From: an uncultured virus (IMG/VR IMGVR_UViG_3300005253_001911)
Taxonomy: Duplodnaviria; Heunggongvirae; Uroviricota; Caudoviricetes
IMG/VR virus record: IMGVR_UViG_3300005253_001911
Reading direction: 5' to 3' (one strand)
Length of the DNA stretch: 64,000 bases
The position numbers were made by a program, and so were the translations under genes. Below the pieces are notes generated by a model. That model saw only the letters and a program-made list of their open reading frames with translations, ran no database searches and had not been told where the DNA came from. Shown piece after piece: positions 1 through 62,285 of this stretch (its first letter is position 1; each line of letters begins with the position of its first letter).

Positions 1-846
1 TTTTTTTTTTTTACTATATTTTTTTCCCTTTCTTAAAAATTTTTTTTTTTTTATTATTACCCAAAAAAAATCATATCCTTCTAAATATTTTATATCTACC
101 CCCGCCGTAATGACTACGGACGCAGCATCTTTTGTCCATGATTCTTCTGCAGCAATTTGTTGTAAATAACCCAATGCAGCACGAGGTACACCATTAGCTT
201 CTTCTGATATATATTGTAATATCTCAATTTTATAATCAAACCCTTCAAATTGACATACCTGTTCTAATAATTTACAAACATCATCATCTTGCAAACGACC
301 AAATTGTGTTATTTTACACCTGTTTCGCGTAACCTCTTTTAGTTTCTGAGGCTCATTAGTACAAAGAATAATATATACATGCTCTGGCGTGTCTTCCAGA
401 AATTTTAGTAAAGCATCTTCTGATCCAGAATTGCCACCAAGTTTATGTGCCTCATCAAATATTGCTACTTTGTATCGTTCTCCACCCATAGGAGCTGATG
501 GTAAATCCTCTAATATCTTTCTCGTAGTAGCAACATCACCAGTCCTTCCAGCGTCACTCTCTATCACTGCAAAACTATTTAAATTCAATATTGCAATACA
601 AGATGCGCACTGACAACAAGGCTCTCCTGATACTCCCTCTATACAGTTTAATCCTAATGCTATAAGCCTTGCAAATGTAGTTTTGCCACATCCTGAAGGT
701 CCAGTAAACAAGAGAGCATGAGGTAATGTATTATTTTCCAACGCTTTATTTATAATTCTTTTTATTGTTTCATTACCAACTACTTCACTAATCTTACAAG
801 GTCGATATATTTTATTAAGATCACCTTTACCTCGTCTGACTATCAT
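1..846 (-). CDS. dnaX: DNA polymerase III gamma/tau-like clamp loader subunit (partial, runs off the left end)
   Basis: Not in the ORF track; translated by hand from ATG at 846: MIVRRGKGDLNKIYRPCKISEVVGNE...LLFTGPSGCGKTTFARLIALGLNC...PCCQCASC...KVAIFDEAHKL...LLKFLEDTP...NRC. Shows Walker A, Zn module, DEAH Walker B and an SRC-like motif. RBS AAAGGAG at 853-859. The last ~90 nt are low complexity. Confidence 0.9.
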   Translation of the reverse strand, partial: MIVRRGKGDLNKIYRPCKISEVVGNETIKRIINKALENNTLPHALLFTGPSGCGKTTFARLIALGLNCIEGVSGEPCCQCASCIAILNLNSFAVIESDAGRTGDVATTRKILEDLPSAPMGGERYKVAIFDEAHKLGGNSGSEDALLKFLEDTPEHVYIILCTNEPQKLKEVTRNRCKITQFGRLQDDDVCKLLEQVCQFEGFDYKIEILQYISEEANGVPRAALGYLQQIAAEESWTKDAASVVITAGVDIKYLEGYDFFWVIIKKKKFLRKGKKYSKKKK

Positions 847-864
847 ACAATTCTCCTTTAAAAA

Positions 865-1081
865 TGGTGGGGAGCCGGTGACCGGTTCATATTAGAATAT
901 TTTCTAACATATTTTTTATCAACAATTTAACAAGTTTATACAACACAACAACGTATAATGTCTGCCACTATTGACACAATCAACAATGATAAGTGGCTGC
1001 CGATCAAGGCCATCTGAGTATTGTCTATTTATCTTTTTCCTCTTAAATGACATTAAAAAGAGTAGTCACCCACATCTCCCC
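865..1081 (-). ncRNA. Putative ~217-nt structured RNA with tRNA-like acceptor stem and encoded 3' ACCA
   Basis: 5' GGGGAG (1081-1076) pairs with CUCCCC-ACCA (874-865), and GGUGACU (1070-1064) pairs with GGUCACC. Internal hairpins at 1040-1062, 964-997, 936-958, 916-933 and 889-910; several need G-U pairs that form only on the minus strand. Confidence 0.65.
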
Positions 1082-1090
1082 GTAAACCAT

Positions 1091-1381
1091 TTATTCCAGT
1101 TCGCCTAAGATACTCTCGTCCTTACTATAATCACCAACTATAGTACTCGCGTTGGTCACCTTAACCGCATCATCAAGGCGTCTAATCTCCAATGCAATGC
1201 GACTAATCATCTTGTCCAAATGCTTCACGTCATAGACAGGAGTCTCAATCACATCGTCCTTAGTCTCTCCCCATCTACGTGTTCTCGTTGAAGAATTATC
1301 ATCCCTTAAACTCACCAACTCTCTATGCCGTTCCTTCAACGTGTTCTTCCAGGACAAACCCTGGCTAATTGTAATTTCCAT
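1091..1381 (-). CDS. Small helical protein resembling the DIP1984-like/DUF6847 family
   Basis: N-terminal ITISQGLSWKNTLKERHREL and C-terminal YDVKHLDKMISRIALEIRRLDDAVKVTNAST fit my recollection of the family pattern (KLAEAL..R..L..R / DV..L......A.E.R.LD..IQ..N..T). Strong RBS AGGAGG. Confidence 0.6.
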   Translation of the reverse strand: MEITISQGLSWKNTLKERHRELVSLRDDNSSTRTRRWGETKDDVIETPVYDVKHLDKMISRIALEIRRLDDAVKVTNASTIVGDYSKDESILGELE

Positions 1382-1412
1382 TCCTTACCTCCTAAAATTT
1401 AGTAACACCTAT

Positions 1413-1441
1413 ATTATAGAATAAAATTCCCTATTTGCTAG
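1413..1441 (-). promoter_or_regulatory. Promoter CTAGCA-N17-TATAAT (copy 1)
   Basis: Minus strand TCTAGCAAATAGGGAATTTTATTCTATAATATAGGTGTT; same motif at 39257-39285 and 62257-62285. Confidence 0.8.
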
Positions 1442-1498: not shown

Positions 1499-1972
1499 TT
1501 ATTCACTATGTATTTCTGAATTTTCCAACAAAAATAGAAGCTCACAGATAATTCCCTGACCACCGTTAGCAATGAATGTAGCCCAACATTTATCCTTTAA
1601 ATATTCTCCTACATCATCTGGGCACAATGACTTAGGTATTATCTGACAACACTTTTCATCGTTTACTTTAGCCCCTATATAAACGACCTCATCAGGGGTA
1701 CAATTGTACCTACGCATAATCTCGCCTAATATATCTACTTTTTCTTTTTCACTCTTCGCCCAGTAAAAGGCTATATTTCTGCGCCTACACATATTGTAAT
1801 TAATATGGTTGTCATCAGACATAAAAACGAATTTAAAATTTTGCTTTATTTTATTTATTGCGGCAAAATCCTTGCTCTGGTAGGTCTTATATATTACATG
1901 ACCCATCTCATCTTCTGATCGTTTACCATTTGTTATTACACCATCTATTTCGCTTACAATTAATTTAATCAT
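1499..1972 (-). CDS. KdsC/YrbI-like HAD phosphatase with degenerate catalytic motifs
   Basis: IKLIVSEIDGVITNG (DxDG changed to ExDG); YIGAKVND (GDxxND changed to GAxxND); C-terminal NGGQG. Confidence 0.75.
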   Translation of the reverse strand: MIKLIVSEIDGVITNGKRSEDEMGHVIYKTYQSKDFAAINKIKQNFKFVFMSDDNHINYNMCRRRNIAFYWAKSEKEKVDILGEIMRRYNCTPDEVVYIGAKVNDEKCCQIIPKSLCPDDVGEYLKDKCWATFIANGGQGIICELLFLLENSEIHSE

Positions 1973-2130
1973 TATTTCTTCGACTCCTTCTCTTCACAAC
2001 GAGCATTCTTAAACACCGTTCTGTTTTTCTTGGTACAAAACACAGCCACAAATGTTCTACAAATACCAGCTCCATCCATTGAACCATTAGGCTGTTTGGC
2101 GTATTTACACATCATATCACAAAATTTCAT
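1972..2130 (-). CDS. Small Cys-rich protein, 52 aa
   Basis: Not in track. Hand translation MKFCDMMCKYAKQPNGSMDGAGICRTFVAVFCTKKNRTVFKNARCEEKESKK; fills the gap and overlaps both neighbours. Confidence 0.7.
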   Translation of the reverse strand: MKFCDMMCKYAKQPNGSMDGAGICRTFVAVFCTKKNRTVFKNARCEEKESKK

Positions 2131-39256: not shown

Positions 39257-39285
39257 ATTATAGAATAAAATTTATCATTTGCTAG
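39257..39285 (-). promoter_or_regulatory. Promoter CTAGCA-N17-TATAAT (copy 2), heads the replication module
   Basis: Minus strand TCTAGCAAATGATAAATTTTATTCTATAATAAAGGTGTT, preceded by a T-rich tract. Confidence 0.8.
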
Positions 39286-62256: not shown

Positions 62257-62285
62257 ATTATAGAATATTTTTTCAATTTTGCTAG
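62257..62285 (-). promoter_or_regulatory. Promoter CTAGCA-N17-TATAAT (copy 3)
   Basis: Minus strand TCTAGCAAAATTGAAAAAATATTCTATAATA. Confidence 0.75.

What the first reader, a model, noticed from the sequence alone, without database searches (positions are those of the whole stretch)
865..1441. Separately promoted small DIP1984-like protein followed by a CCA-ended, multi-hairpin RNA: candidate new ribonucleoprotein system
Seen: the largest intergenic gap in this gene-dense window lies directly after a 96-aa helical ORF that has its own promoter (1413-1441) and RBS. On the minus strand, 9 nt after the stop, the gap reads GGGGAG-AUGUG-GGUGACU ... GGUCACC-GG-CUCCCC-ACCA. The two ends therefore form a 6-bp plus 7-bp closing helix with a tRNA-style discriminator and CCA. 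Inside are back-to-back hairpins: CUCUU/AAGAG (1040-1062), GCCACU..UUGA/UCAA..AGUGGC (964-997), UUAUACG/UGUAUAA (936-958), UUGUUAA/UUGAUAA (916-933) and AUGUUAGAA/UUCUAAUAU (889-910). The G-U pairs work only on the minus strand, and UUG/UUGU recurs in loops and stems. Known: RNase P and 3' trimming release RNAs with acceptor-like stems ending in CCA (tRNA, tmRNA). There is no T-loop and no G3-U70 pair, so this is neither. Inference: a stable processed RNA of ~217 nt whose UUG repeats bind an oligomer of the adjacent protein (scaffold, sponge, toxin-antitoxin or anti-defence role). The DIP1984/DUF6847 assignment is from memory of the family pattern.
Basis: partly seen in the sequence, partly recalled or inferred. 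Interest (0 to 1): 0.85.

Follow-up and report, generated by a model that had tools for sequence, protein, structure and literature searches.

The report
New tRNA-ended phage RNA with partner gene
The gap holds a real, evolutionarily conserved folded RNA of about 215 bases that matches no catalogued RNA family, ends like a transfer RNA, and always follows one small phage gene of unknown function, so the two probably form an undescribed RNA-protein pair.

Summary
Window 865-1081 (minus strand) folds far better than shuffles (z -4.19) and matches no Rfam family, tRNA or tmRNA. All 24 distinct loci I found that encode a relative of the 96-aa protein (41-100% identity, AT-rich and GC-rich phage contigs) carry the same RNA downstream on the same strand. 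Two closing helices, a hairpin and further stems are kept through many compensatory changes (90% of cells paired against 42-49% for slid partners). Conserved single-stranded blocks include AUGUG, GAUAA, ACC and a nearly invariant UUGUUGAUUGUG inside a UUG-rich tract. The CCA tail is not universal but recurs: 10 of 21 full-length elements have CCA 0-2 nt after the closing helix (background 1 in 700). Its presence tracks whether neighbouring phage tRNA genes encode CCA in 9 of 10 loci. The module often lies in phage tRNA islands, once beside a phage RNase P RNA and once beside a tmRNA. I read it as a new stable, tRNA-style-matured phage RNA that probably works with the co-transcribed DIP1984-like (short DUF6847-like) protein. 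Binding, expression and function are untested.

The parts
1413..1440 (-). Promoter-like motif TAGCAAA-N15-TATAAT in front of the small gene
   Evidence: 3 copies in the window against 0.14 expected, all on the coding strand. Present upstream of the gene in related loci. Not called by the generic sigma-70 scan.
1388..1393 (-). Ribosome-binding site AGGAGG of the 96-aa ORF
   Evidence: Read directly from the sequence.
1091..1381 (-). 96-aa helical protein, a short distant relative of DIP1984/DUF6847
   Evidence: Pfam DUF6847 E 0.0012, 19.3 bits, below the cut-off of 27. NCBIfam DIP1984_fam 18.8 bits, below the cut-off of 70. AF2 model is helix, beta-hairpin, helix with pLDDT 71. 274 cluster representatives at E<=0.001.
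865..1081 (-). The whole structured RNA ('RNA X'), 217 nt including the ACCA tail
   Evidence: z -4.19. No Rfam, tRNA or tmRNA match. Covariance model R1 gives 176.8 bits and a single hit in the 64-kb window.
1076..1081 (-). P1, 5' strand GGGGAG (pairs with 869-874)
   Evidence: GGGGAG/CUCCCC, GGGAAG/CUUCCC and GGGAGG/CCUCCC, plus unrelated longer helices in distant members.
869..874 (-). P1, 3' strand CUCCCC
   Evidence: As above.
1071..1075 (-). Junction AUGUG, conserved single strand
   Evidence: Kept in AT-rich and GC-rich members.
1064..1070 (-). P2, 5' strand GGUGACU (pairs with 877-883)
   Evidence: On a structure-blind MAFFT alignment of 18 sequences, 91.3% of cells are paired against 5-44% when slid. 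6 of 7 pairs change on both sides.
877..883 (-). P2, 3' strand GGUCACC, preceded by the conserved ACC (884-886)
1040..1062 (-). P3 hairpin CUCUU...AAGAG
   Evidence: 98.9% paired, with 4 of 5 pairs changed on both sides once distant members are included.
1028..1039 (-). Conserved single strand GAAAAAGAUAAA (GAUAA core)
   Evidence: GAUAAA occurs in 13 of 20 elements. Alignments.
964..997 (-). P5 stem GCCACU/AGUGGC enclosing the nearly invariant UUGUUGAUUGUG (975-986)
   Evidence: The stem covaries among AT-rich members (helix 6). UUGUUG occurs in 17 of 20 elements.
958..977 (-). Alternative helix GUGUC/GACAU that overlaps P5
   Evidence: Predicted by RNAalifold. Two positions swap UC/GA against CU/AG, and 11 of 12 sequences keep the helix, one with a mismatch. 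It cannot nest with P5.
911..957 (-). UUG-rich tract; its local hairpins are lineage-specific
   Evidence: UUG is about 2-fold over mononucleotide shuffles in 19 of 20 elements.
890..909 (-). P7 hairpin
   Evidence: All 7 pairs change on both sides. Deleted in L020 and L010, so it is dispensable.
865..868 (-). Discriminator-like A plus CCA
   Evidence: CCA lies 0-2 nt after P1 in 10 of 21 elements, against a background of 1 in 700. It is concordant with tRNA-gene CCA status in 9 of 10 loci.

Best explanation
The locus is one transcription unit of a large environmental tailed phage: promoter, a small DIP1984-like protein gene, then a roughly 215-nt structured RNA ('RNA X').

RNA X is a member of an uncatalogued RNA family. 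Its two ends pair (P1) and stack on a second long-range helix (P2). A hairpin (P3) and conserved junction nucleotides form the core. A UUG-rich region with a nearly invariant UUGUUGAUUGUG is displayed in the interior.

Inferred: the RNA is cut out of the polycistronic transcript the way tRNAs are, by RNase P at the first G of P1 and by 3' trimming to a discriminator. CCA is either encoded or added. This would give a stable RNA that acts in trans.

Inferred more weakly: its partner is the protein encoded just upstream (gene order as for smpB-ssrA), with the UUG-rich strand as the likely contact. The pair may serve a translation- or tRNA-related task, because it sits in phage tRNA islands.

Shown: conservation, covariation, strand, gene linkage, CCA statistics.
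Inferred: processing, stability, protein binding, function.
For: Fold and catalogues:
- z -4.19 on the minus strand.
- No Rfam family at gathering score in the window, and none relevant at E<=10 in 700-1600.

Linkage:
- All 24 distinct loci with a protein homologue carry RNA X downstream on the same strand.
- 19 were found by model R1 at E<=0.01 (18, L023).
- 3 were weak R1 hits at the expected place: L030 E 0.19, L026 0.28, L035 2.9.
- 2 were found by eye only, L024 and L031.
- The downstream gene varies, and ORFs or other RNAs are inserted between gene and RNA in L009, L023 and L029.
- There is one copy in a complete 204.6-kb phage genome and one in this window.

Covariation:
- 90.4% of cells paired against 76.0% shuffled (0 of 500) and 42-49% slid. 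31 of 37 pairs change on both sides (model-fitted alignment).
- On the MAFFT alignment, 85.4% against 78.0% shuffled and 36-49% slid.
- P2 alone on an 18-sequence MAFFT alignment: 91.3%.
- Frequent G-U pairs fit only the minus strand.

tRNA-type end:
- CCA lies 0-2 nt after P1 in 10 of 21 elements from seven lineages, against 1 of 700 at offsets 5-39.
- Where RNA X has CCA, 16 of 17 neighbouring tRNA genes encode CCA. Where it lacks CCA, 0 of 10 do. L023 is the one exception.

Context:
- tRNA genes lie within the fetched flanks in 10 of 20 loci, with a tmRNA in L030 and an RNase P RNA at 172 bits in L012.
- The next gene's RBS follows within about 10 nt and there is no terminator, so release needs processing.
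- RNase P is known to process non-tRNA substrates, including phage regulatory RNAs (passage read in PMC4919922).
Against: - No expression data exist: no listed sequencing run is RNA.
- 11 of 21 elements lack an encoded CCA, and L023 breaks the tRNA concordance.
- P1 ranges from 6 to 18 bp and there is no T arm, so the RNA is not a standard RNase P substrate shape.
- The GC-rich member L024 folds no better than shuffles (z -0.68, 53 of 200).
- L024 and L031 were not recovered by the covariance model.
- The protein is near-neutral (median pI 6.6, 8 of 57 above 8) with an acidic tail, which is not the usual look of an RNA binder.
- Lineages are few and partly related, so the shuffle statistics overstate independence.
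Confidence: 0.55

Rival explanations
1. RNA X is a stable trans-acting RNA, but its partner is a host or other phage factor rather than the adjacent protein. It would act as a sponge or decoy presenting many G/U-rich sites. The small gene would merely share the transcript.
For: The UUG-rich single strand is the most conserved sequence feature. The adjacent protein is near-neutral. Three loci tolerate 0.4-1.1 kb of inserted genes or RNAs between gene and RNA. ROOL and GOLLD are phage RNAs near tRNA islands with no known protein partner (passages read in bioRxiv 10.1101/2024.12.08.627333).
Against: The same protein family sits upstream on the same strand in 24 of 24 loci, across 41-100% protein identity and 28-59% G+C of the element, while every other neighbour changes. 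No candidate target was found: complements of the core motif are not enriched in the window (14 seen, 9.0 +/- 3.1 expected).
Confidence: 0.2
2. RNA X is a cis-acting intercistronic element. It would act as a processing, stability or 'punctuation' signal that uncouples the small gene from downstream genes, with no life of its own.
For: It lies between ORFs with no terminator, and the next RBS follows within about 10 nt. tRNA-like ends would suit a punctuation role.
Against: Roughly 190-245 nt with conserved junction nucleotides, and a nearly invariant 12-mer kept across distant GC contents, is far more than a cleavage signal needs. It stays with the upstream gene while downstream genes differ.
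Confidence: 0.12
3. RNA X is an aminoacylatable, tmRNA-like translation factor, and the small protein is its SmpB-like partner.
For: It has an acceptor-like helix plus N-CCA. The gene order resembles smpB-ssrA (recalled). It lies in tRNA, tmRNA and RNase P RNA islands.
Against: There is no T arm and no ARAGORN or Rfam tmRNA call. There is no G3-U70 pair. One-base indels between close kin inside the UUG region exclude a conserved tag frame. L030 already has a standard tmRNA. The protein is helical, not an SmpB-like barrel.
Confidence: 0.06
4. The conserved feature acts at the DNA level as an origin, priming or packaging site rich in GTT/TTG.
For: There is a strand-asymmetric G/T-rich tract next to replication genes in this window.
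Against: Helices are kept by compensatory changes with many G-U pairs that would be A-C on the other strand. The plus strand folds worse. The replication-gene neighbour is not conserved.
Confidence: 0.03
5. The gap encodes a small protein: the 44-aa ORF at 919-1053 on the minus strand.
For: An ATG-started 44-codon frame exists in the window.
Against: The frame is not kept in relatives, which have indels of 1 nt and early stops. The conservation pattern is that of paired helices.
Confidence: 0.01

Closest known systems
Stable small RNAs of phage tRNA regions: T4 RNAC and RNAD
   Same: Phage-encoded small RNAs transcribed from the tRNA gene region, with roles still unknown (passages read in PMC3014915, and PMC9697503).
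   Different: No partner protein gene is reported for them in the passages read. RNA X has its own conserved upstream gene.
ROOL and GOLLD RNAs
   Same: Structured RNAs of phages and prophages, often near tRNA islands, with unknown function (passages read in bioRxiv 10.1101/2024.12.08.627333).
   Different: They are much larger (GOLLD often exceeds 800 nt per that text; ROOL's size of roughly 580 nt is recalled), have no known protein partner, and are in Rfam. RNA X gave no Rfam hit and has a CCA-type end.
tmRNA with SmpB
   Same: Paired 5' and 3' ends followed by N-CCA, a long-range second helix, and a small partner protein gene just upstream (gene order recalled).
   Different: No T arm, no conserved tag frame, and not detected by ARAGORN or Rfam. 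A true tmRNA coexists in L030. The protein fold differs.
RNase P-matured phage regulatory RNAs (C4 antisense RNA of P1/P7) and other non-tRNA RNase P substrates
   Same: Non-tRNA RNAs released by RNase P (passage and reference list read in PMC4919922). The role of an acceptor-like stem with CCA in that release is recalled.
   Different: C4 is a short antisense repressor (size recalled). No Rfam hit to it. No antisense targets were found for RNA X.
DIP1984 family / Pfam DUF6847 (PDB 3kdq)
   Same: The 96-aa protein aligns to the C-terminal half of both profiles. Its model overlays 3kdq_C at TM 0.60 over 75 columns. The nearest ESM Atlas clusters are viral DUF6847 proteins.
   Different: It scores below both curated cut-offs, is about two-thirds the length, and the Foldseek E-value is 5. 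The family itself has no known function.

Membership tests
tRNA | Cloverleaf with D, anticodon and T arms | tested here: not met
   ARAGORN found 0 genes in the window. No Rfam tRNA hit.
tRNA | Acceptor helix followed by discriminator and CCA (encoded or added) | tested here: inconclusive
   N-CCA after P1 in 10 of 21 elements, concordant with neighbouring tRNA genes in 9 of 10 loci. The actual RNA ends are unmapped.
tmRNA | tRNA-like domain with T arm, G3-U70, and a tag reading frame | tested here: not met
   No ARAGORN or Rfam call. G3-C in P1. 1-nt indels in the interior between close kin.
Bacterial RNase P RNA | Match to class A/B models with the conserved P4 core | tested here: not met
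   No hit at E<=10 in 700-1600. The same tool finds a 172-bit RNase P RNA elsewhere in L012.
Any Rfam 15 family (including ROOL, GOLLD, C4, 6S, SRP, Y RNA) | Score at or above the gathering threshold | tested here: not met
   0 matches in the window. The best in the region is 17.3 bits to a snoRNA model, by chance. None on RNA X in L009, L012, L022, L023 or L024 at E<=0.1.
DIP1984 family / DUF6847 | Score above the curated Pfam or NCBIfam cut-off over the full profile | tested here: not met
   19.3 bits on profile positions 65-136 of 141. 18.8-24.5 bits. This makes it a distant short relative, not a member by the curated rule.
DIP1984 family / DUF6847 | Fold like PDB 3kdq | tested here: inconclusive
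   3kdq_C is rank 9 with TMq 0.60, rmsd 3.7 over 75 columns, E 5. There are 0 hits at E<=0.001, and the model pLDDT is 71.
Type III toxin-antitoxin RNA | Tandem direct repeats of the RNA upstream of the toxin gene | tested here: not met
   The RNA lies downstream of the gene and is a single multi-helix fold without tandem units.

The most novel reading that the evidence does not exclude
RNA X and the DIP1984-like protein form a new tRNA-ended ribonucleoprotein, a functional analogue of tmRNA-SmpB or of a small RNP enzyme. Large phages would carry it in their tRNA islands to act on the host ribosome or on tRNA maturation or repair.
Probability: 0.15. Interest if true: 0.9.

Novelty: categorically new. 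Interest (0 to 1): 0.78.

Why it matters
If confirmed, this adds a new structured RNA family with a tRNA-type end. It would also give a first functional handle, an obligate RNA neighbour, for the DIP1984/DUF6847 protein family, which has a crystal structure but no known role. It would extend the list of mysterious RNAs that large phages keep in their tRNA islands (T4 RNAC/RNAD, ROOL, GOLLD). The system is directly testable because both parts are small and co-encoded.

Tried and rejected
Searches that found nothing:
- Rfam at gathering and at permissive thresholds gave nothing relevant.
- PHROGs gave nothing under E 0.075.
- The PDB sequence search gave nothing under E 0.1. The best was the ribosomal protein uS7 N-terminus at E 0.14, treated as chance.
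- tblastn of three family members against 50,697 GenBank phage records gave no match.
- Our-findings look-ups by sequence gave nothing.

Steps that could not run:
Cellular relatives were therefore not examined. DUF6847 rang only in the control genome Deinococcus radiodurans, for which no locus was given.

Ideas tested and dropped:
- The antisense-target idea: complements of the core 12-mer are not enriched.
- An RNA-first scan with a 15-mer of the P2 region gave 41 hits. Only the 2 already known loci were real, and the other 39 lacked the partner strand, P1, GAUAA and the protein, so they serve as a specificity control.
- An H-type pseudoknot of P5 with the GUGUC/GACAU helix: only 1 nt would have to span a 6-bp stem, so I treat them as alternatives.
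- A tag or small ORF reading, rejected because of indels.

Recalled leads not tested: resemblances of short motifs to phi29 pRNA, to 4.5S and RNase P RNA cores, and to a T4 translational operator. Rfam did not support the first three.

Full report
**What is there.** All genes of the 64-kb window lie on the minus strand. The window carries phage-type replication genes (primase, DnaB, RecA, sliding clamp, clamp loader), giant tail-fibre-like proteins and a large glycan-synthesis cluster.

At 1091-1381 (-) lies a 96-aa ORF with an AGGAGG ribosome-binding site. Nine bases after its stop begins a 217-nt stretch (1081 to 865). It opens GGGGAG-AUGUG-GGUGACU and closes GGUCACC-GG-CUCCCC-ACCA. The ribosome-binding site of the clamp-loader gene follows about ten bases later.

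As RNA of the minus strand it folds at -62.5 kcal/mol, against -44.9 +/- 4.2 for 200 dinucleotide shuffles (z -4.19, none as good). The other strand gives z -2.58. ARAGORN finds no tRNA or tmRNA in the window. Rfam 15 gives no match at gathering score and nothing meaningful at E<=10.

**Relatives.**
- A word-indexed search found 18 close relatives of the protein.
- A full HMMER scan with their alignment found 274 cluster representatives at E<=0.001 and 103 at 1e-10, nearly all about 95-100 aa.
- None is in 50,697 GenBank phage records, tested with three queries.
- DNA could be fetched for 17 metagenome loci and for viral contigs.
- After removing duplicates this gives 24 distinct loci, with protein identity to the window from 100% down to about 41% and element G+C from 0.28 to 0.59.

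**Linkage.** Every one of the 24 loci has the same RNA downstream on the same strand. 21 elements are full length and 3 are cut by a contig end (L005, L010, L017).
- A covariance model built from 12 AT-rich members (R1) recovers 18 at E<=0.0023, including the distant L029, L028 and L025.
- With filters off it recovers L023 at E 1.1e-5.
- L030, L026 and L035 are only weak hits at the expected coordinates (E 0.19, 0.28, 2.9).
- L024 and L031 were recognised by eye from the shared architecture.

The RNA usually starts within 10-60 nt of the stop. In L009, L023 and L029 it is separated by 0.4-1.1 kb holding inserted ORFs, other structured RNAs or a tRNA. The gene downstream of the RNA differs between loci.

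R1 finds one copy in this window. It also finds one copy in a complete 204.6-kb phage genome with terminal repeats.

**Architecture.** From the alignments and an automatic helix table:
- P1 is formed by the two ends, 6 to 18 bp, with its sequence free to vary.
- A junction follows, AUGUG in many members.
- P2 is 7 bp (GGUAGYC type).
- One or two bases later comes hairpin P3.
- A conserved single strand with a GAUAA core follows.
- Next come one or two variable hairpins.
- A nearly invariant block UUGUUG(A/G)UUGUG leads into a UUG-rich tract.
- Then come a conserved ACC, the 3' strand of P2, 1-14 bases, and the 3' strand of P1.

UUG is about twice as frequent as in mononucleotide shuffles in 19 of 20 elements. 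The most widely shared hexamers are UUGUUG (17 of 20), UUGAUU (16) and GAUUGU (15).

In the AT-rich members a stem (P5) encloses the invariant block, and a last hairpin (P7) precedes ACC. P7 is deleted in L020 and L010. A second helix (GUGUC/GACAU in the window) overlaps P5 and also shows a two-position swap. With one base between them the two cannot coexist as a regular pseudoknot. I leave open whether they alternate.

**Covariation.**
- Model-fitted alignment of 18 matches: 90.4% of 534 cells are standard pairs, against 76.0 +/- 1.0 after shuffling partners (0 of 500 as high) and 42-49% when the 3' partner is slid by 1-3 columns. 31 of 37 pairs show a change on both sides, against 15.7 expected.
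- That alignment leans towards the model, so I repeated the count on the structure-blind MAFFT alignment of 12 sequences. It gives 85.4% against 78.0 shuffled and 36-49% slid, and 14 pairs with double changes (6 of 500 shuffles reach that).
- For P2 alone on an 18-sequence MAFFT alignment that includes GC-rich members: 91.3% paired against 5-44% slid, with 6 of 7 pairs changed on both sides.
- G-U pairs are common in P1, P2 and P3, which fits only the minus strand.
- Caveat: the sequences fall into a handful of lineages, so the shuffle counts overstate independence.
- Negative result: the GC-rich L024 element folds no better than its shuffles (z -0.68).

**The 3' end.** Counting all 21 full-length elements changes this.
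- CCA begins 0-2 nt after the core of P1 in 10 elements: window, L006, L007, L008, L011, L025, L026, L030, L031, L035. These come from seven lineages.
- CCA occurs once in 700 positions at offsets 5-39 downstream.
- In L026 and L025 the helix could extend over part of the CCA.
- Where RNA X carries CCA, neighbouring phage tRNA genes encode CCA in 16 of 17 cases: L025 9 of 10, L026 2 of 2, L030 3 of 3, L031 1 of 1, L035 1 of 1.
- Where RNA X lacks CCA, they do so in 0 of 10 cases: L012 0 of 2, L001/L019 0 of 6, L020 0 of 1, L029 0 of 1.
- L023 is the exception, with tRNAs 3 of 3 and RNA X without CCA.

This is what one expects if the 3' end of RNA X is made and maintained like that of a tRNA.

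**Context.** It points the same way.
- tRNA genes on the same strand lie within the fetched flanks in 10 of 20 loci. L025 has ten, on both sides.
- L030 has a standard tmRNA.
- L012 has a 264-nt class A RNase P RNA (172 bits) abutting tRNA-Val, 160 nt beyond RNA X.
- This window itself has no tRNA.

**The protein.**
- Pfam DUF6847 matches at E 0.0012 (19.3 bits, cut-off 27), with residues 3-77 aligned to profile positions 65-136 of 141.
- NCBIfam DIP1984_fam gives 18.8-24.5 bits for three members against a cut-off of 70.
- An AlphaFold2 model from 19 sequences (pLDDT 71, pTM 0.49) is a helix, a beta-hairpin and a helix.
- Foldseek finds nothing at E<=0.001. The uncharacterised Corynebacterium diphtheriae protein 3kdq_C is rank 9 (TM 0.60, E 5).
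- The nearest ESM Atlas clusters are viral, two of the top three carrying DUF6847 on 60% and 20% of members.

So it is a short, distant relative of that family, not a member by curated thresholds.

Invariant or near-invariant residues include R18, L22, L25, P48, Y50, D56, K74 and N77. The family is near-neutral (median pI 6.6) with an acidic C-terminal tail. None of the 20 listed papers held 'DIP1984' or 'DUF6847'.

**Transcription.** However, TAGCAAA-N15-TATAAT at 1413-1440 recurs at 39257-39284 and 62257-62284, always on the coding strand in front of genes. That is 3 copies seen against 0.14 expected. The motif also precedes the small gene in the related AT-rich loci. The unit is therefore promoter, small gene, RNA X, running on into the next gene.

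**Reading.** Shown: a new, conserved, strand-specific structured RNA family, single-copy, tied to one small protein family, with a CCA-type 3' end signature and a home in phage tRNA islands.

Inferred: it is excised like a tRNA. RNase P is known to process 4.5S RNA, tmRNA and phage regulatory RNAs (PMC4919922, passage). It would then act as a stable RNA.

Inferred more weakly: it acts together with the co-encoded protein, with the UUG-rich strand as the displayed surface.

Its nearest analogues are the function-unknown T4 RNAC and RNAD from the tRNA region (PMC3014915 and PMC9697503, passages). ROOL and GOLLD, phage RNAs near tRNA islands, are also close (bioRxiv 10.1101/2024.12.08.627333, passages). 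It is a member of none.

**Earlier notes of this scan.** Two notes describe DIP1984-like genes next to uncatalogued structured RNAs. One concerns about a hundred bacterial and archaeal loci. The other concerns large phages, beside a tRNA, with a G/U-rich strand. I could not inspect those loci, and they are leads, not support. My own phage loci show the second pattern independently.

**Left open.** Expression, true ends, protein binding, oligomer state, any link to cellular DIP1984 loci, and function.

Noticed in passing
L012:2119-2382: A 264-nt bacterial class A RNase P RNA (172.2 bits, E 2e-54) is encoded on a phage-like metagenome contig. It abuts tRNA-Val and lies 160 nt downstream of RNA X. 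One literature search for phage-encoded RNase P RNA returned one paper, which I did not read.
   Followed up: partly
L030:886-1249: ARAGORN calls a tmRNA (tag AEPLSMYAMA*) on a viral contig, between tRNAs and about 1 kb upstream of the DIP1984-like gene.
   Followed up: no
L023:1174-1334 and L023:1353-1526: Two further structured elements lie between the small gene and RNA X. One is closed by an 8-9-bp helix (z -2.41). The other is about 175 nt with an acceptor-like stem and a T-arm-like hairpin, and neither ARAGORN nor Rfam calls it.
   Followed up: partly
L001:5055-5127: ARAGORN calls a tRNA with anticodon CUA (labelled Pyl, an amber-reading tRNA) in the phage tRNA cluster.
   Followed up: no
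window 1413-1440, 39257-39284, 62257-62284: A phage-specific promoter-like motif TAGCAAA-N15-TATAAT occurs three times on the coding strand (0.14 expected) and is conserved in related contigs.
   Followed up: partly
window 2127-26000: A roughly 24-kb phage-borne glycan cluster holds NeuB-type synthase, cytidylyltransferase, epimerases/dehydratases, two sulfotransferases, APS-kinase-like, radical SAM/SPASM, several methyltransferases and at least six glycosyltransferases.
   Followed up: no
window 1-110: The window begins with long A/T homopolymer runs. The clamp-loader ORF (1-846, minus strand) therefore ends in a low-complexity lysine-rich tail that may be an assembly-end artefact.
   Followed up: no
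window 1972-2130 and L001:1042-1206: A 52-54-aa cysteine-rich ORF (MKFCD.MC.YAK...) is conserved near the module in two distant relatives. It has no family match.
   Followed up: no
L009:1789-2347: An ORF of roughly 180 aa is inserted between the small gene and RNA X in this relative only.
   Followed up: no
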